Shown here one piece after another: positions 4,859 through 22,032 of a DNA stretch of 64,000 bases. The notes beneath the pieces were generated by a model. The model did no database searches, had not been told where the DNA came from, and was given only the letters and a program-made list of their open reading frames with translations. The position numbers were made by a program, and so were the translations under genes. The DNA lies in NCBI RefSeq assembly GCF_024298765.1, contig NZ_CP101210.1; one strand, written 5' to 3'. Numbering within the stretch: position 1 is the stretch's first letter; every line of letters begins with the position of its first letter. This DNA comes from Escherichia coli. GTDB taxonomy: Bacteria > Pseudomonadota > Gammaproteobacteria > Enterobacterales > Enterobacteriaceae.

Positions 4859-6231
4859 CCTTGTGGGTCCTTACGCGTAATAGTGACCGGAAGCCAGAGG
4901 GTGAACGTTGCGCCTTTTCCCTCCTGGCTTACGACCTGAATTGTACCACCGTGTTGTTCAACAATATTATGCACGACCGCCAGCCCCAGTCCGGTGCCTT
5001 CGGCCTTCGTGGTGAAATACGGGGTGAAGATGGCTTCAAGCTGATCCGCCGCAATTCCCTTACCGCTGTCGGTAACGCTGATTTTTACGCCCGCGCCGCT
5101 TTCGCTGGCCGTCACGCTAATCACGCCATGCTGACCAATCGCCTGAATAGCGTTGAGATAGAGATTCAACAGGACCTGAGTCAGCCTGTCCGGATCGGCC
5201 TGAATTTCCGGTAATGTGTCGTTGGCGGTAAAGCGTAACTGGATCTCCCGGCTGTTTGCATCCTGGCTTACCAGCTGTAATGAGTGGCTAATCAGCGTGT
5301 TGAGTTCCACCGCCTGCAAAGCCAGATGCGTTGGCTTAACCAGTTCCAGCAACTCGCTTACCACGCGGTTTAAACGGTCAGCTTCTTTCGCCATCACCTG
5401 CGCCAGTTGATGCGCTTCTCCCCCTGCTGGCGCGCGTTCGGCAAAGTATTTCGCCAGCCCTTTAATCGAGGAAAGTGGGTTACGGATTTCGTGGGCAACG
5501 CCTGCCGCAAGATGCCCCAGTGCCACCAGCTTCTCTTTGCGCTTCATTTCATCCTGCAACAGCTGGCCCGAGCGCAGATATCGGCGATACCAGAAGAATG
5601 ACAACACGCTTGCCAGCAAGACCGTCGCCAGGGCGAAGAGGATAATCAGGGTGTTTCTCTGCTCACGATCTTCGGCACTCACAATGTTACTGGCGTCGAA
5701 AGCGATAAAAATTGCTTGTGGTGTCGCGGCATACTGCTGCATATGGCGCATCCGGTGCATTCCAGCAGCAAACATCGGTTGAAACTGGCGATAAATTTCC
5801 AGAACAGGCTCGCCGTCTGCGCTATCGATCCGCCGCCACGCTTCTTCATCTCCCGGATGTAACTGCTGCATTTCCTGCGGGGAATAAAGCTGTTTTCCCA
5901 CCATGCCGGAGTTGCTATGCATCACGATTGTTCCTTGTTCATCCGTGACCGCAAACCAACGTACACCAGGCTGCCCGGCCATTTCTTCCAGTAATGCCTG
6001 CTGCTGCGCATGATGCATGCGCATCCCCATGCCGACGCGCGAGCCGGATTCGAGAGCACGGATAAGTACACTGCCTTTTTCCAGCAGCGTTTGTCTGGCG
6101 GCTGCAGTCTCGCGCCCGTAATCGCGAATCACTGTCACCGCAAACAGCCCCACCAGCCCAACAATGACCACGGGGAGGATCGCGCTTAACCATTTAGCTA
6201 AGGAGTCTTTAGAACGTTGCATAAAACGCAT
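4855..6231 (-). CDS. zraS: Sensor histidine kinase of the zinc-responsive envelope stress two-component system
   Basis: 458-aa ORF; TM segments, H-box HEIRNPL, HATPase G-boxes; upstream of and overlapping zraR. Confidence 0.9.
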   Translation of the reverse strand: MRFMQRSKDSLAKWLSAILPVVIVGLVGLFAVTVIRDYGRETAAARQTLLEKGSVLIRALESGSRVGMGMRMHHAQQQALLEEMAGQPGVRWFAVTDEQGTIVMHSNSGMVGKQLYSPQEMQQLHPGDEEAWRRIDSADGEPVLEIYRQFQPMFAAGMHRMRHMQQYAATPQAIFIAFDASNIVSAEDREQRNTLIILFALATVLLASVLSFFWYRRYLRSGQLLQDEMKRKEKLVALGHLAAGVAHEIRNPLSSIKGLAKYFAERAPAGGEAHQLAQVMAKEADRLNRVVSELLELVKPTHLALQAVELNTLISHSLQLVSQDANSREIQLRFTANDTLPEIQADPDRLTQVLLNLYLNAIQAIGQHGVISVTASESGAGVKISVTDSGKGIAADQLEAIFTPYFTTKAEGTGLGLAVVHNIVEQHGGTIQVVSQEGKGATFTLWLPVTITRKDPQG

Positions 6232-15668: not shown

Positions 15669-16439
15669 ATGTTACGTATTGCGGACAAAACGTTTGATTC
15701 ACATCTGTTTACCGGCACCGGGAAATTCGCTTCTTCACAACTGATGGTGGAGGCGATCCGCGCTTCCGGCAGCCAGCTGGTGACGCTGGCGATGAAACGT
15801 GTCGACTTGCGCCAGCACAACGACGCTATCCTCGAACCGCTTATCGCGGCGGGTGTGACCCTGCTGCCGAATACTTCCGGGGCGAAAACAGCGGAAGAAG
15901 CCATTTTCGCCGCCCATCTGGCACGTGAAGCATTAGGCACAAACTGGCTAAAATTAGAGATTCACCCTGACGCCCGCTGGCTGTTGCCCGATCCCATCGA
16001 AACCCTGAAAGCCGCCGAAACGCTGGTACAACAGGGATTTGTCGTGCTGCCTTACTGCGGGGCCGATCCGGTATTGTGTAAACGTCTGGAAGAAGTCGGC
16101 TGTGCAGCGGTGATGCCGCTCGGCGCGCCGATTGGCTCGAATCAGGGACTGGAAACCCGCGCCATGCTGGAGATTATTATCCAGCAGGCCACGGTTCCGG
16201 TGGTTGTCGATGCTGGCATCGGCGTTCCCAGCCATGCCGCGCAGGCGCTGGAAATGGGGGCCGACGCGGTGTTAGTGAATACGGCGATTGCCGTCGCGGA
16301 CGATCCCGTCAACATGGCGAAGGCATTTCGTCTGGCAGTAGAAGCAGGCCTGCTGGCACGGCAGTCCGGACCGGGCAGCCGCAGTCATTTTGCTCATGCC
16401 ACCAGCCCGCTGACCGGATTTCTGGAGGCATCGGCATGA
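15669..16439 (+). CDS. thiG: Thiazole synthase
   Basis: 256 aa from [20 protein letters not shown]. Confidence 0.95.
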
Positions 16440-17569
16440 AAACCTTCAGCGATCGCTGGCGACAACTGGACTGGGACAACATCCGCCTGCGTATCAACGG
16501 CAAAACGGCTGCTGACGTAGAGCGGGCGCTAAATGTCTCGCAACTCACCCGCGACGATATGATGGCGCTGTTATCGCCAGCCGCCAGTGGCTATCTGGAA
16601 CCACTGGCCCAACGGGCGCAGCGTCTGACCCGTCAGCGATTTGGCAACGTCGTCAGCTTCTACGTCCCGCTTTATCTTTCCAATCTTTGCGCTAACGACT
16701 GCACGTACTGCGGATTCTCTATGAGCAACCGCATCAAGCGCAAAACGCTGGATGAAGCGGATATTGCCAGGGAAAGCGCCGCTATACGGGAGATGGGCTT
16801 TGAACATCTGCTTTTAGTCACTGGTGAACATCAGGCGAAAGTGGGGATGGATTACTTTCGTCGTCATCTCCCTGCCCTGCGTGAACAGTTCTCTTCACTA
16901 CAGATGGAAGTACAGCCGCTGGCGGAGACGGAATACGCCGAGTTAAAGCAACTTGGTCTGGATGGCGTGATGGTTTATCAGGAGACATATCACGAGGCGA
17001 CTTATGCCCGCCATCATCTGAAAGGCAAAAAACAGGACTTCTTCTGGCGGCTGGAAACGCCGGATCGGCTGGGCCGTGCGGGGATTGATAAGATAGGCCT
17101 CGGCGCGCTAATTGGCCTTTCCGACAGCTGGCGCGTTGACTGCTATATGGTTGCAGAACATTTGCTATGGCTGCAACAGCATTACTGGCAAAGCCGCTAC
17201 TCTATCTCCTTCCCACGCCTGCGTCCATGTACTGGCGGCATTGAGCCTGCGTCGATTATGGATGAACGCCAGTTAGTGCAAACCATCTGCGCCTTCCGGC
17301 TGCTTGCACCGGAGATTGAACTGTCACTCTCCACGCGGGAATCACCGTGGTTTCGCGATCGCGTTATTCCGCTGGCAATTAATAACGTCAGCGCTTTTTC
17401 GAAAACGCAGCCAGGTGGCTATGCCGACAATCACCCCGAGCTGGAACAGTTCTCACCGCACGACGATCGCAGACCGGAAGCGGTTGCTGCCGCGTTAACT
17501 GCTCAGGGTTTGCAGCCGGTATGGAAAGACTGGGACAGCTATCTGGGACGCGCCTCGCAAAGGCCATGA
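16436..17569 (+). CDS. thiH: 2-iminoacetate synthase (radical SAM tyrosine lyase)
   Basis: 377 aa; radical [11 protein letters not shown] motif. Confidence 0.95.
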
Positions 17570-17761
17570 GACAGAATGTAAGAACGTAAATTTATTCCGA
17601 GCCGCTACGGAAGATGAAAAACGCAAGGTTGTTGAAAGCGTTGTGTTTTTTTATGGTAGTCCCGTCAGCAGGAATGTTGTCCAGGGCGAAAAGCTTCTTC
17701 CTCGTTTCGCCCTGCCTTTCTTAAAAATTCCGTGAAGAATTGCCCTCTGAATAACACCCAT

Positions 17762-17790
17762 AAAAAAACCCGCCGAAGCGGGTTTTTACG
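17762..17790 (-). terminator. Intrinsic terminator downstream of rpoC (bidirectional geometry)
   Basis: Minus strand reads aaaaacccgcTTCGgcgggttttttt: GC stem, UUCG tetraloop, U-run; A-run on the other side. Confidence 0.8.
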
Positions 17791-17808
17791 TTATTTGCGG
17801 ATTAACGA

Positions 17809-20800
17809 TTACTCGTTATCAGAACCGCCCAGACCTGCGTTCAGCAGTTCTGCCAGGCTGGCAGATGCGTCTTCTGCAGTCACCTGCGGTGCAGCCGGAG
17901 CTTCACCCGCAGCACGGCGACGCATACGATCCTGGTGGTACGCGTAACCGGTACCTGCCGGGATCAGACGACCCACGATAACGTTCTCTTTCAGGCCGCG
18001 CAGTTCGTCGCGTTTGCCCGCAACGGCTGCTTCGGTCAGCACGCGAGTGGTCTCCTGGAACGATGCCGCGGAGATGAAGGACTCGGTTGCCAGAGACGCT
18101 TTGGTGATACCCAGCAGATCGCGGGAGTAAGTTGCACCCACTTTGCCGTTCGCTTCCAGTTCGCGGTTTGCGATCTTGACGCGAGAGTATTCAACCTGTT
18201 CACCTTCCAGGAAGTCGGAGCTGCCCGCGTTAACGATGGTAGCTTTACGCAGCATCTGACGAACGATAACTTCGATGTGTTTATCGTTAATCTTAACGCC
18301 CTGCAGACGGTATACGTCCTGTACTTCGTTAACGATGTAACGAGTAACAGCATGAACACCACGCAGACGCAGAATGTCGTGCGGCGCTTCCGGACCGTCG
18401 GAAATTACGTCACCACGTTCTACACGTTCACCTTCGAACACGTTGAGCTGACGCCATTTTGGAATCATCTCTTCGTACGGATCGCTACCGTCTACCGGGG
18501 TGATAACCAGACGACGTTTACCTTTGGTTTCTTTACCGAAGGAAACGATACCGCTGATTTCAGCCAGGATTGCCGGCTCTTTCGGACGACGTGCTTCGAA
18601 CAGATCCGCAACGCGCGGCAGACCACCGGTGATGTCCTTGGTACCGCCGGATTCCTGCGGAATACGCGCCAGGGTGTCACCAGAGCTGATCTGTACGCCA
18701 TCTTCCAGCTGAACAATCGCTTTACCCGGCAGGAAGTACTGCGCAGGCATATCGGTACCCGGGATCAGTACATCGTTACCCTGAGCATCAACGATTTTCA
18801 GTGCCGGACGCAGATCTTTACCACCTGCGGTACGTTCTGCGGAATCCAGAACCACCAGCGAAGACAGACCGGTCAATTCGTCGGTCTGACGCGTAATGGT
18901 CTGACCGTCGATCATGTCAGTAAAGCGTACAAAACCGCTTACTTCGGTGATAACCGGCATGGTGTGCGGGTCCCAGTTTGCAACGGTTTCGCCGCCAGCA
19001 ACCTGTTCGCCATCGCCTTTTGCCAGTACCGCACCGTAAGGTACTTTGTAGCTTTCTTTGGTACGACCGAATTCGTCGATCAGTTTCAGTTCGGTGTTAC
19101 GGGAAGTGATAACCAGTTTACCGCTGGAGTTCACAACCGACTTCACGTTGCTGAGCTTGATGCTACCTTTGTTTTTCACCTGGATGCTGGATTCAGCAGC
19201 CGCACGAGATGCCGCACCACCGATGTGGAACGTACGCATGGTCAGCTGTGTACCCGGTTCACCGATGGACTGTGCCGCGATAACACCGATTGCTTCACCT
19301 TTGTTGATGATGTGGCCACGCGCCAGGTCACGACCGTAGCAGTGCGCACATACACCAAAGTCGGTGTCACAAGATACAACAGAACGTACTTTAACCGCGT
19401 CGACAGAGTTCTCTTCCAGCAGGTCACACCACTGTTCGTGCAGCAGCGTGTTGCGCGGAACGAGGATATCAGCAGTACCCGGCTTCAGAACGTCTTCAGC
19501 AGTTACACGACCCAGTACGCGATCGCGCAGCGGCTCTTTAACGTCACCACCTTCGATAACCGGAGTCATCATGATACCTTCATGAGTACCACAATCGTCT
19601 TCGGTAACCACTAGGTCCTGCGCCACGTCAACCAGACGACGAGTCAGGTAACCGGAGTTCGCCGTTTTCAGTGCGGTATCCGCCAGACCTTTACGAGCAC
19701 CGTGGGTGGAGATGAAGTACTGGAGTACGTTCAGACCTTCACGGAAGTTCGCGGTGATTGGCGTTTCGATGATGGAGCCATCCGGCTTCGCCATCAGACC
19801 ACGCATACCAGCAAGCTGACGAATCTGTGCCGCAGAACCACGCGCACCGGAGTCGGCCATCATGTAGATGCTGTTGAAGGAAACCTGCTTCTCTTCCTGA
19901 CCGTCACGGTTAATAACGGTTTCAGTTTGCAGGTTATCCATCATCGCTTTGGATACACGATCGTTCGCCGCAGCCCAGATATCGATAACTTTGTTGTAGC
20001 GTTCGCCCGCAGTTACCAGACCAGACTGGAACTGCTCCTGAATTTCAGCAACTTCTGCTTCTGCCTCGGAGATGATTTCGTGTTTCTTCTCCGGGATGAC
20101 CATGTCATCGATACCAACAGATGCACCAGAACGCGCTGCATATGCAAAGCCGGTGTACATGATCTGGTCCGCAAAAATAACGGTCGGTTTCAGACCGAGA
20201 ATGCGGTAGCAGGTGTTCAGCATTTTGGAGATTGCTTTTTTACCCAGCGCCTGGTTGACGATGGAGTAAGGCAGACCTTTCGGTACAATCATCCACAGAA
20301 TGGCACGGCCAACAGTCGTGTCTTTCAGGCTGGTTTTCGCTACTAATTCACCGTTAGCATCTTTTTCATACTCGGTGATACGCACTTTAACGCGCGCATG
20401 CAGAGAGGCCAGACCAGAGCGATACAGACGTTCTGCTTCTTTCGGGCCAGTCAGCACCATGCCTTCGCCTTTGGCGTTAACACAGTCACGGGTCATGTAG
20501 TACAGACCCAGTACAACGTCCTGAGACGGAACGATGATTGGTTCGCCGTTCGCCGGGGACAGGATGTTGTTGGTAGACATCATCAGCGCACGCGCTTCCA
20601 GCTGGGCTTCCAGCGTCAGCGGTACGTGAACTGCCATCTGGTCACCATCGAAGTCGGCGTTATATGCCGCACAAACCAGCGGGTGCAGCTGGATAGCTTT
20701 ACCTTCGATCAGTACCGGTTCAAATGCCTGGATACCCAGACGGTGCAGAGTCGGTGCACGGTTCAGCAGTACCGGGTGTTCGCGGATAACTTCGTCCAGG

Positions 20801-22032
20801 ATATCCCAAACGACAGCTTCTTCGCGCTCAACCATTTTCTTCGCAGCTTTAATGGTGGTAGCAAGACCACGCAGTTCCAGCTTGCCGTAGATGAACGGTT
20901 TGAACAGCTCCAGCGCCATTTTCTTCGGCAGACCGCACTGATGCAGACGCAGGTATGGACCTACGGTGATTACAGAACGACCGGAGTAGTCAACACGCTT
21001 ACCGAGCAGGTTCTGACGGAAACGACCCTGTTTACCTTTGATCATGTCGGCCAAAGATTTCAGAGGACGCTTGTTAGAACCGGTGATCGCACGACCGCGA
21101 CGACCGTTATCCAGCAGGGCGTCTACCGCTTCCTGCAGCATACGTTTTTCGTTACGTACGATGATGTCCGGCGCAGCCAGATCCAGCAGACGTTTCAGAC
21201 GGTTGTTACGGTTAATGACGCGACGATACAGATCGTTCAGGTCAGAAGTCGCGAAACGACCACCATCCAGCGGAACCAGCGGACGCAGATCTGGCGGCAG
21301 TACCGGCAGAACGGTCAGGATCATCCACTCTGGTTTGTTACCAGACTGAACGAACGCTTCCAGCAGTTTGATACGCTTGGTCAGCTTTTTACGCTTGGTT
21401 TCGGAGTTGGTTTCGTTCAGCTCTTCACGCAGCTGTTCGCACTCTTGCTCCAGATCCATGCTCTTCAGCAGGGCCTGGATTGCTTCCGCACCCATTTTCG
21501 CGTCGAATTCGTCACCGAACTCTTCCAGCGCGTCCAGATACTGCTCTTCAGTCAGGATCTGCTGGCGTTCCAGGTTGGTCATACCGCCTTCAATAACCAC
21601 ATAGGATTCGAAGTACAGTACGCGTTCGATATCGCGCAGCGGCATATCGAGCAGCAGGCCGATACGGGACGGCAGCGATTTCAGGAACCAGATGTGCGCA
21701 GTCGGGGAAGCCAGTTCGATGTGGCCCATACGCTCACGGCGTACTTTAGTCTGGGTCACTTCAACGCCGCACTTCTCACAGATGACACCACGGTGTTTCA
21801 GGCGCTTGTACTTACCGCACAGGCACTCGTAATCTTTTACCGGCCCAAAGATACGGGCGCAGAAAAGGCCGTCACGTTCTGGTTTGAACGTACGGTAGTT
21901 GATGGTTTCCGGCTTTTTAACTTCACCGAAAGACCATGAACGGATCATGTCTGGCGAAGCCAGAGCAATTTTGATCGCATCAAACTCTTCGGTTTTAGTC
22001 TGCGCTTTCAGAAACTTTAATAAATCTTTCAC
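17809..22032 (-). CDS. rpoC: DNA-directed RNA polymerase beta' subunit
   Basis: 1407 aa [64 protein letters not shown]. Confidence 0.99.

What the first reader, a model, noticed from the sequence alone, without database searches (positions are those of the whole stretch)
17570..17808. rpoC-thiH interval is only 239 bp with no ORF: htrC/yjaZ appears to be absent
In K-12 the gene between rpoC (b3988) and thiH (b3990) is htrC/yjaZ (b3989, about 179 aa). Here rpoC and thiH are convergent and separated by 239 bp containing only terminator-like hairpins (17612..17654, 17682..17713, 17762..17790). The ORF track shows nothing longer than 71 aa in this interval. This indicates either a strain-specific loss or that htrC is itself a K-12 lineage acquisition.
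Basis: partly seen in the sequence, partly recalled or inferred. Interest (0 to 1): 0.35.

Follow-up and report, generated by a model that had tools for sequence, protein, structure and literature searches.

The report
Common E. coli allele lacking yjaZ/sroH
The short gap between rpoC and thiH is real, but it is an ordinary, already documented gene-content variant shared by about 30% of sequenced E. coli, which lack a small plasmid-related cassette (yjaZ plus the sroH RNA gene) that K-12 carries there.

Summary
Observation confirmed. thiH (16436-17569, +) and rpoC (17809-22032, -) converge on a 239-bp spacer holding three hairpins and no gene. No YjaZ-like coding sequence exists anywhere in the 64 kb.

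Compared with K-12, 23 bp (17734-17756) stand where K-12 has 945 bp.

Neither proposed explanation holds. Of 5,426 complete E. coli genomes, 1,626 (30%) have this short allele, including the type strain ATCC 11775, Nissle 1917, ST131 and E. coli C. Another 3,717 (68.5%) have the cassette, including K-12, O157:H7, O111, 55989 and BL21. A lineage about 7% diverged (E69) also has it, with the same boundaries.

All short alleles share one junction yet sit on different flank haplotypes. That indicates a single origin followed by spread through homologous recombination. The absence of sroH from "B2 + D", E. coli C and some Shigella was published in 2012.

The cassette core belongs to a plasmid-borne family, and 78 other Enterobacteriaceae species lack it at this site. 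Whether the short allele is the original empty site or an ancient deletion is unresolved.

Side observation: yjaZ and sroH travel together across phyla, and sroH shows strong covariation for a multi-helix structure.

The parts
16436..17569 (+). thiH, last gene of thiCEFSGH; left conserved flank of the variable site
   Evidence: ORF; NCBIfam TIGR02351 ThiH 523 bits, cut-off 380; annotated thiH in the identical strain 104
17570..17733 (.). Part of the spacer collinear with K-12 (2 differences in 164 bp); contains hairpins 1 and 2
   Evidence: Base-by-base comparison with K-12 locus L001
17616..17654 (+). Hairpin 1 plus U-run: probable intrinsic terminator of the thi operon (an A-run upstream could make it bidirectional)
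   Evidence: RNA fold -17.5 kcal/mol, z = -5.5, 0 of 200 shuffles as stable. The position is conserved in Citrobacter with changed stem bases. Not detected by the simple pattern scan
17682..17714 (.). Hairpin 2 (CAGGGCGAAA...UUUCGCCCUG): conserved element marking the fixed left edge of the hypervariable segment; function unknown
   Evidence: Folds on both strands, z = -2.9 and -3.5. Its 3' arm is found in more than 40 outgroup loci, and sequence diverges right after it in every lineage. One G-C to A-U compensatory change in Citrobacter
17734..17756 (.). 23-bp allele-specific filler (GAAGAATTGCCCTCTGAATAACA) standing where K-12 has the 945-bp yjaZ-sroH cassette
   Evidence: The same filler, with 1-2-bp variants, is in all eight short alleles examined. 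It is not derived from the cassette. It is weakly similar to the last 27 nt of the cassette allele of E69 (21 of 5,000 shuffles; four comparisons tried)
17764..17787 (-). rpoC (rplKAJL-rpoBC operon) intrinsic terminator, A-run/stem/T-run, so potentially bidirectional; right conserved edge of the variable segment
   Evidence: Terminator scan; fold -17.8 kcal/mol on the - strand; core conserved next to rpoC across Enterobacteriaceae
17809..22032 (-). rpoC, right conserved flank
   Evidence: ORF; NCBIfam TIGR02386 1787 bits; protein identical to WP_000653944.1 as annotated in strain 104 and K-12

Best explanation
The 239-bp rpoC-thiH spacer is the cassette-free ('short') allele of an old presence/absence polymorphism that runs through the whole E. 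coli species.

Shown: the two alleles are collinear up to just past a conserved hairpin (window 17733) and again from just before the rpoC terminator (17757). Between those points this strain has 23 bp, and K-12-type strains have 945 bp carrying yjaZ and the convergent sRNA gene sroH. In this strain the spacer contains only the two converging operons' terminator hairpins plus the conserved hairpin 2, and nothing is encoded.

Inferred: the short allele arose once, because every copy has the same non-cassette junction. It has since moved between genetic backgrounds by homologous recombination through the highly conserved flanks (thiH and hairpin 2 on one side, the rpoC terminator and rpoC on the other). 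That explains why it sits on several different flank haplotypes, including K-12-like ones.

Inferred: the cassette core (yjaZ ORF plus sroH, about 690 bp) is a horizontally acquired module of a plasmid-borne family. It entered this site before E. coli diversified.

Unresolved: whether the short allele is the surviving never-occupied site (my slight preference) or a single ancient deletion.
For: Anatomy and boundaries.

What K-12 has there: yjaZ at L001 2410-2949 (-) and sroH at L001 2248-2408 (+), 201 bits against Rfam's gathering score of 80. The window has neither.

Frequencies: the cassette is in 3,717 of 5,426 genomes. The short junction, in any variant, is in 1,626 of 5,426, including Nissle, ST131 and WG5; E. 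coli C is short. The window's own variant is in 440, including the type strain ATCC 11775. The two classes sum to 98.5% of genomes.

Single origin plus recombination: eight short alleles share the same filler. E. coli C (short) and L099 (long) have identical 648-bp left flanks. L094, L100 and L101 (short) differ from K-12 (long) by only 1-2 bases in that flank.

Age: short alleles differ from one another by up to about 3% in the spacer. The cassette in E69 has identical boundaries and 83 differences in 1,161 bp from K-12, matching the flank divergence (thiH about 93%).

Horizontal origin of the cassette: 78 other Enterobacteriaceae species have no yjaZ or sroH within 4 kb after thiH, and the spacer ranges from about 340 bp to more than 4 kb with other cargo. 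YjaZ-family genes with sroH occur on ColE1-type, IncF and phage-plasmid-like plasmids. Nucleotide homology between chromosome and plasmid is limited to yjaZ plus sroH.

Published: sroH is absent from 'B2 + D, Ec_C_ATCC, Sf, Ss_046' (PMC3318445).
Against: The direction of the original event is not established. Published parsimony favours loss, and a cassette allele in the divergent E69 lineage fits that view.

The 23-bp filler is only weakly similar to the cassette allele's right end: p about 0.004 for the best of four comparisons and not significant against K-12. So neither a clean insertion nor a clean deletion explains the junction.

The 11-bp direct repeat bracketing the cassette in K-12 (AAATTCCGTAA / AAATTCCTTAA, 910 bp apart) is degenerate in E69 and may be chance.

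Phylogroups were not computed here. Calling Nissle, ST131 and ATCC 11775 'B2' rests on general knowledge plus PMC3318445.

E. albertii, E. fergusonii, E. marmotae and E. ruysiae chromosomes were not obtained. I did not check whether this strain carries a yjaZ homolog elsewhere, for example on a plasmid.
Confidence: 0.9

Rival explanations
1. Polarity A: the short allele is the original, never-occupied site. The yjaZ-sroH cassette inserted once into such a spacer in an early Escherichia lineage. The empty allele survived in other lineages and has been exchanged by recombination ever since.
For: The cassette core is a mobile, plasmid-borne module, and all 78 other species lack it at this site. 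A Citrobacter species has a comparably short, cassette-free spacer that aligns with the short allele. The filler is not cassette-derived. The 27 nt next to the rpoC terminator differ by about 26% between K-12 and E69 but by more between the filler and either of them. By that crude measure the short/long split is older than the K-12/E69 split, so no extra event is needed.
Against: It requires the empty allele to persist or be re-imported over a long time. The outgroup sequence right of hairpin 2 is too diverged to show that the filler is ancestral. The clock argument rests on 23-27 low-complexity bases.
Confidence: 0.5
2. Polarity B: a single ancient deletion removed the cassette from an occupied allele. 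The resulting short allele then spread by recombination. This is the 'secondary loss' reading of Skippington and Ragan (2012).
For: The cassette allele is present in the about 7%-diverged E69 lineage with the same boundaries, so it predates E. coli diversification. The published parsimony inference is loss in B2 + D, E. coli C, S. flexneri and S. sonnei 046. Bacterial genomes have a general bias towards deletion (established knowledge). An imperfect 11-bp direct repeat brackets the segment in K-12.
Against: A deletion should leave only long-allele sequence at the junction, yet the filler is at best about 55-60% identical to the long allele's right end while the flanks are 93-99% identical. The independent losses listed in the 2012 paper cannot be independent deletions, because E. 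coli C has the same filler as strains with the window's junction such as the type strain. The repeat is degenerate in E69.
Confidence: 0.4
3. One reading: a loss of htrC/yjaZ specific to this strain.
For: The gene is absent here.
Against: The same allele is in 1,626 complete genomes from many sources and lineages. It is diversified by SNPs and small indels.
Confidence: 0.02
4. One reading: yjaZ is an acquisition of the K-12 lineage.
For: The gene family is plasmid-borne and absent from other genera at this site.
Against: The cassette is in 68.5% of E. coli genomes, including O157:H7, O111:H8, 55989 and BL21, and in the divergent E69 lineage with matching divergence.
Confidence: 0.02
5. Assembly artefact: the cassette was collapsed or dropped in this assembly.
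For: None.
Against: The junction contains 23 bp that are not in the cassette allele. The same junction is present in hundreds of independent complete assemblies, including the type strain.
Confidence: 0.01

Closest known systems
sroH/yjaZ-negative E. coli genomes (phylogroups B2 + D, E. coli C/ATCC 8739, some Shigella) described by Skippington and Ragan 2012 (PMC3318445)
   Same: The same locus and the same absence. My counts find the allele in Nissle 1917, ST131, ATCC 11775 and E. coli C/WG5, matching their list.
   Different: That paper scored only sRNA presence or absence in 27 genomes and inferred several independent losses. Here the junction is defined to the base, yjaZ is shown to go with sroH, and all short alleles are shown to share one junction. 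That means one origin plus recombination, not repeated deletions.
K-12 MG1655 rpoC-yjaZ-sroH-thiH arrangement (b3988-b3990)
   Same: Flanks are collinear and 98-100% identical. Both terminator hairpins and hairpin 2 are conserved.
   Different: K-12 has 945 bp (yjaZ, 179 aa, plus sroH, 161 nt) where the window has 23 bp. O157:H7 has a third state: the cassette with a 71-bp deletion, giving a 147-aa product.
Variable-cargo intergenic sites between conserved core genes, where alleles are exchanged by recombination through the flanks (general concept from E. coli pangenome work; my own knowledge)
   Same: The boundaries are fixed (hairpin 2 and the rpoC terminator). Different lineages carry different cargo: nothing, yjaZ-sroH, a >4-kb island of at least two genes in E. 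whittamii, and PTS IIB/IIA-like and other genes in other genera.
   Different: There is no tRNA, integrase or IS at the site, and the cargo here is under 1 kb. So this is not a classical integrase-mediated genomic island.

Membership tests
E. coli rpoC-thiH short (yjaZ/sroH-negative) allele | thiH and rpoC convergent with a spacer of about 239-241 bp, flanks collinear with the cassette-bearing allele | tested here: met
   the same layout in L002, L004-L007, L094, L100 and L101
E. coli rpoC-thiH short (yjaZ/sroH-negative) allele | Shared junction filler CCGTGAAGA(A/C)(T)TTGCCCTCTGAATAACA directly before the rpoC terminator | tested here: met
   Window 17734-17756. Identical in strain 104 and at the junction of ATCC 11775. 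Variants in the other short alleles
YjaZ family (NCBIfam NF007263; Pfam PF27200) | A protein-coding region matching the family profile or K-12 YjaZ | tested here: not met
   tblastn of K-12 YjaZ against the whole window found no hit at E <= 1e-3. There is no ORF over 71 aa in the spacer. K-12 YjaZ itself scores 430 bits against NF007263
sroH sRNA (Rfam RF00372) | Covariance-model match at or near the gathering score (80 bits) | tested here: not met
   No sroH match at E <= 1 in window 16000-19000. K-12 scores 201 bits with the same search
Rho-independent (intrinsic) terminator | GC-rich stem-loop followed by a U-run, placed just after the stop codon of the upstream operon | tested here: met
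   rpoC terminator 17764-17787. Hairpin 1 with its U-run after thiH is more stable than all 200 shuffles but fails the simple scan's loop rule. Termination itself is not testable here
Integrase- or IS-mediated genomic island | Integrase, transposase or tRNA at the site, with clear direct repeats flanking the insert | tested here: not met
   The K-12 cassette is annotated with yjaZ only, and Rfam adds sroH. The only bracketing repeat is an 11-bp 10/11 match of the kind expected by chance, and it is degenerate in E69. IS2 or IS1 in a few genomes are secondary insertions
RelE/ParE-superfamily toxin (considered for the missing YjaZ protein, not for the window) | Significant structural or sequence match to RelE/ParE/HigB/YoeB toxins | tested here: inconclusive
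   [not shown]
Type III toxin-antitoxin system (considered for yjaZ-sroH) | Antitoxin RNA made of tandem repeats upstream of, and co-transcribed with, an endoribonuclease toxin | tested here: not met
   sroH lies downstream of and convergent to yjaZ. In the alignment it is a single non-repetitive structured unit. No tandem-repeat search was run

The most novel reading that the evidence does not exclude
What this strain lacks may not be just an orphan 'heat-shock' gene. It may be a self-contained mobile module made of a protein and a structured RNA. In the close YjaZ family (47-100% identity), an sroH-like RNA lies convergent and directly after the gene in 9 of 9 loci examined: the E. coli chromosome, a 2.46-kb ColE1-type plasmid where it is the only cargo, IncF plasmids, a phage-plasmid-like replicon, Serratia, an Aeromonas chromosome and a cyanobacterial MAG. 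The RNA has invariant sequence blocks and at least five helices with compensatory changes. The protein model weakly resembles RelE/ParE-type toxins. On this reading the rpoC-thiH polymorphism reflects a selfish or addiction-like element with an RNA partner, for instance an unconventional toxin plus RNA antitoxin or a ribonucleoprotein, and the window shows its empty site.
Probability: 0.25. Interest if true: 0.6.

Novelty: already known. Interest (0 to 1): 0.15.

Why it matters
For the finding itself, very little. It is a routine accessory-gene difference. It does remind annotators that K-12 gene order is not the species default: the E. coli type strain and major pathogenic and probiotic lineages (ST131, Nissle 1917) lack both yjaZ and sroH.

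It has some practical relevance. The 'featureless region between htrC and rpoC' has been used as a neutral marker-insertion site in K-12 (PMC7160681), and it does not exist in this form in about 30% of strains. SroH target studies done in K-12 (for example kbl, PMC6172242) do not carry over to strains without the gene.

The side observation could matter more. An sRNA treated so far as an E. coli base-pairing regulator appears to be the conserved, structured partner of a widely mobile protein family of unknown function.

Tried and rejected
1. Rfam scan of the window spacer. It gave only sub-threshold hits (rsmX 31 bits against 56, Trp and Leu leaders, istR), all driven by the rpoC terminator hairpin. 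The same hits appear in K-12. Rejected as noise.

2. Cryptic yjaZ remnant. tblastn across all 64 kb found nothing. The filler is no more similar to the cassette than shuffled sequence is (score 18-20 against 17.4 +/- 2.4).

3. Using outgroups to polarise the event. Sequence right of hairpin 2 differs in every genus. An apparent 11-of-13 match between the filler and Citrobacter MGH106 is not repeated in other outgroups, so I do not rely on it.

The exact-RpoC look-up returned only E. coli-type contexts, without organism names.

5. Direct repeat as proof of insertion. It is a 10/11 match over 11 bp, is degenerate in E69, and is of chance size.

6. Phage origin of yjaZ: no tblastn hit in 50,697 phage records.

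7. Defence-system assignment: no PADLOC hit. The local Pfam copy has no hit, although a newer family, PF27200, exists in precomputed data.

8. '559 plasmids carry yjaZ' was an over-reading. About 450 of them are a distant subfamily (about 29% identity over residues 3-148). Four such loci show no sroH with Rfam's model. Close-family plasmids number about 100, matching the 103 with blastn-detectable sroH.

9. Literature. No paper was found for 'stationary phase growth adaptation', PRK09717 or PF27200. B. subtilis yjaZ hits are an unrelated gene. The original htrC functional designation is described as retracted (PMC11551758).

Full report
OBSERVATION

The window is E. coli. Positions 17070-18310 are 100% identical to strain 104 (chicken isolate, NZ_CP029164) and match 5,420 of 5,426 complete E. 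coli genomes. thiH occupies 16436-17569 on the + strand and rpoC occupies 17809-22032 on the - strand. Both are confirmed by NCBIfam equivalog models well above their cut-offs. The spacer 17570-17808 is exactly 239 bp. The longest ORF touching it is a 71-aa frame that runs antisense into rpoC.

Hairpin 1 (about 17616-17651, z = -5.5) is followed by a U-run and is the likely thi operon terminator. Hairpin 2 (17682-17714) has z of about -3 on either strand. Hairpin 3 (17764-17787) is the rpoC terminator, an A-run/stem/T-run structure that could act in both directions.

WHAT IS DIFFERENT FROM K-12

Base-by-base comparison shows the two sequences are collinear from thiH to window 17733 (2 differences in 164 bp), and again from 17757 through the rpoC terminator into rpoC. 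Between those points the window has 23 bp (GAAGAATTGCCCTCTGAATAACA) and K-12 has 945 bp.

The 945 bp contain yjaZ and also the sRNA gene sroH. sroH scores 201 bits against Rfam's gathering score of 80. It lies convergent to yjaZ and ends 1-2 nt from its stop codon. The window has no sroH even at E <= 1 and no YjaZ-like coding potential anywhere in 64 kb. So two genes are missing, and the difference is a replacement rather than a clean deletion.

HOW COMMON IT IS

Across 5,426 complete E. coli genomes:
- The 945-bp cassette is present (at least 80% covered) in 3,717 genomes, or 68.5%.
- A junction-spanning probe from a short allele is fully matched in 1,626 genomes, or 30.0%.
- The window's own junction variant is in 440 genomes, including the species type strain ATCC 11775 at 100% identity.
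- The two classes account for 98.5% of genomes. Some of the rest have IS insertions in the spacer.

Short-allele strains include Nissle 1917, O25b:H4-ST131, ATCC 11775, E. coli C and its derivative WG5. Cassette strains include K-12, BL21, 55989, O111:H8 and O157:H7. O157:H7 has a 71-bp internal deletion that gives a 147-aa product.

This pattern has been published for sroH. Skippington and Ragan (2012) list it as absent from 'B2 + D, Ec_C_ATCC, Sf, Ss_046' and interpret it as secondary loss (PMC3318445). Neither 'strain-specific loss' nor 'K-12-lineage acquisition' can therefore stand.

ONE ORIGIN, SPREAD BY RECOMBINATION

Eight short alleles from different backgrounds all have the same structural junction and the same filler. 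They differ only by SNPs and 1-2-bp indels around it. Independent deletions could not regenerate a filler that is absent from the cassette allele, so the short allele arose once.

Yet the flanks do not track the indel. E. coli C (short) and locus L099 (long) have identical 648-bp left flanks. Three short alleles (L094, L100, L101) differ from K-12 (long) by only 1-2 bases there. The window's left flank is closer to O157:H7 (long, 8 differences) than to other short alleles (16-18 differences). The simplest reading is repeated allele exchange by homologous recombination through the conserved flanks. This is an inference.

AGE

Short alleles differ from one another by up to about 3% in the spacer. 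Cassette alleles within E. coli differ by 1.5-2.8%.

The collection holds one genome per species-level cluster. From that, and from the divergence below, I infer that its 'E. coli E69' record represents a lineage outside typical E. coli. Its thiH is about 93% identical to both K-12 and the window, about as distant as E. whittamii. It carries the cassette with exactly the same boundaries and 83 differences in 1,161 bp, matching the flank divergence. The cassette has therefore sat at this site since before E. coli diversified.

WHERE THE CASSETTE COMES FROM

In thiH-anchored loci from 78 other Enterobacteriaceae species, none has a YjaZ homolog or sroH within 4 kb downstream of thiH. The thiH-rpoC distance ranges from about 340 bp to more than 4 kb.

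Hairpin 2 is conserved in more than 40 of these loci, and sequence diverges immediately after it in every lineage. The rpoC terminator core is likewise conserved. Between these two fixed edges different lineages carry different cargo:
- nothing, or little more, in the E. coli short allele and in a Citrobacter species whose spacer aligns with it;
- yjaZ-sroH;
- a different island of more than 4 kb in E. whittamii that starts at the same left breakpoint;
- genes that by sequence look like PTS IIB and IIA components, plus other genes, in many genera. I did not run family searches on these.

YjaZ (NCBIfam NF007263, 430 bits) belongs to a family carried on plasmids. Close relatives (55-78% identical) occur on 2.46-kb ColE1-type plasmids, on IncF plasmids, and on about 90-kb phage-plasmid-like replicons of E. 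coli, E. fergusonii and E. marmotae. None was found in phage records. Nucleotide homology between the chromosomal cassette and the plasmids covers only the yjaZ ORF plus sroH, about 690 bp. The cassette is thus a horizontally acquired accessory module.

DIRECTION OF THE EVENT (UNRESOLVED)

For loss: the cassette allele is trans-specific (E69), and published parsimony favours loss.

For the short allele being the surviving empty site:
- The filler is not cassette-derived.
- The filler is at best weakly homologous to the last 27 nt of the cassette allele. The best case is E69, where 21 of 5,000 shuffles score as well, out of four comparisons tried. Against K-12 it is not significant.
- That small tract differs by about 26% between K-12 and E69, and by more between the filler and either of them. 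This would place the short/long split before the K-12/E69 split.

This argument rests on 23-27 low-complexity bases. An 11-bp imperfect direct repeat brackets the cassette in K-12 but is degenerate in E69. I lean slightly towards the empty-site reading (about 0.5 against 0.4) and give the test that would decide it.

SIDE OBSERVATION

sroH-like RNA lies convergent and directly after the YjaZ-family gene in 9 of 9 close-family loci examined:

| Locus | Host or replicon | sroH score (bits) |
|---|---|---|
| L001 | E. coli K-12 chromosome | 201 |
| L009 | E69 chromosome | 195 |
| L089-L092 | Four plasmids | 99-122 |
| L106 | Serratia | 101 |
| L103 | Aeromonas hydrophila chromosome | 74 |
| L105 | Cyanobacterial MAG | 70 |

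Rfam annotates only a terminator hairpin for this family. The cross-phylum alignment shows invariant blocks (GGAUGCAGCAGAC, GACAUCCC, CCGGUAA, UCUGAAUACCA, UGGCGAA) separated by stems of variable length. On the RNAalifold structure (34 pairs), 98% of cells pair. Thirteen pairs have compensatory changes, against 4.3 +/- 1.5 in shuffles (0 of 500 reach the observed value) and 0-3 in slid-register controls.

A distant YjaZ-like subfamily (about 29% identity), which makes up most of the 559 plasmid matches, shows no sroH with Rfam's model in four loci. I found no paper describing this pairing. The original htrC functional designation is described as retracted (PMC11551758).

VERDICT

The feature is an ordinary and already documented gene-content polymorphism, so I score it low. 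The only thing of wider interest concerns the cassette that this window does not contain.

Noticed in passing
[not shown]
   Followed up: partly
window 17682-17714; L010-L074 about 150-250 nt after thiH: Hairpin 2 (CAGGGCGAAA...UUUCGCCCUG) is conserved in more than 40 Enterobacteriaceae loci, with one compensatory change in Citrobacter. It marks the point after which sequence differs in every lineage. Its function is unknown.
   Followed up: partly
L003 1435-1878 (O157:H7): O157:H7 strains carry the cassette with a 71-bp deletion near the 3' end of yjaZ. This changes the reading frame and gives a 147-aa 'protein HtrC' instead of 179 aa, so there is a third allele at this locus.
   Followed up: no
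L010 5135-9128 (E. whittamii): E. whittamii leaves collinearity with E. coli at almost the same left breakpoint (after CTTAAAA). It carries a different island of more than 4 kb with a 211-aa ORF and an 895-aa ORF. rpoC is not reached within 4 kb.
   Followed up: no
L044 7186-7811; L058 5266-5583: In many other genera a 105-aa ORF, which by sequence looks like a PTS IIA (cellobiose/lactose type) component, ends right at the rpoC terminator. It is often preceded by a IIB-like ORF and, in Lelliottia, by a 513-aa ORF. So the ancestral family-level state of this spacer was probably not empty. No family search was run on these ORFs.
   Followed up: no
L008 3648-4876; hit H91: Some cassette-bearing E. 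coli have IS2 or IS1 inserted in the spacer between thiH and sroH/yjaZ. This accounts for part of the 1.5% of genomes that fit neither main allele.
   Followed up: no
window 16436-17569 versus L001 867-2000: thiH is unusually diverged between this strain and K-12 (96.5% nucleotide identity), while the adjacent 3' end of rpoC differs by only 2 bases in 525. The left-flank haplotypes are mosaic with respect to the indel, which suggests frequent recombination here.
   Followed up: partly
L054 about 5240-5330; L015 about 5130-5180: Two outgroup loci (an Enterobacter MAG and Citrobacter sp. Cu233) have an rpoC-terminator-like hairpin shortly after thiH, but no RpoC C-terminus was detected in the remaining 1.5 kb. 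This is unexplained and could reflect rearrangement or MAG chimerism.
   Followed up: no
L109 783-1340 (K. pneumoniae pSZS128-KPC) and about 450 similar plasmid records: A distant YjaZ-like subfamily (about 29% identity over residues 3-148) is very common on Klebsiella and Enterobacter resistance plasmids. In L109 it lies between IS26 copies, next to a restriction-endonuclease fragment. No sroH was detected beside it.
   Followed up: partly
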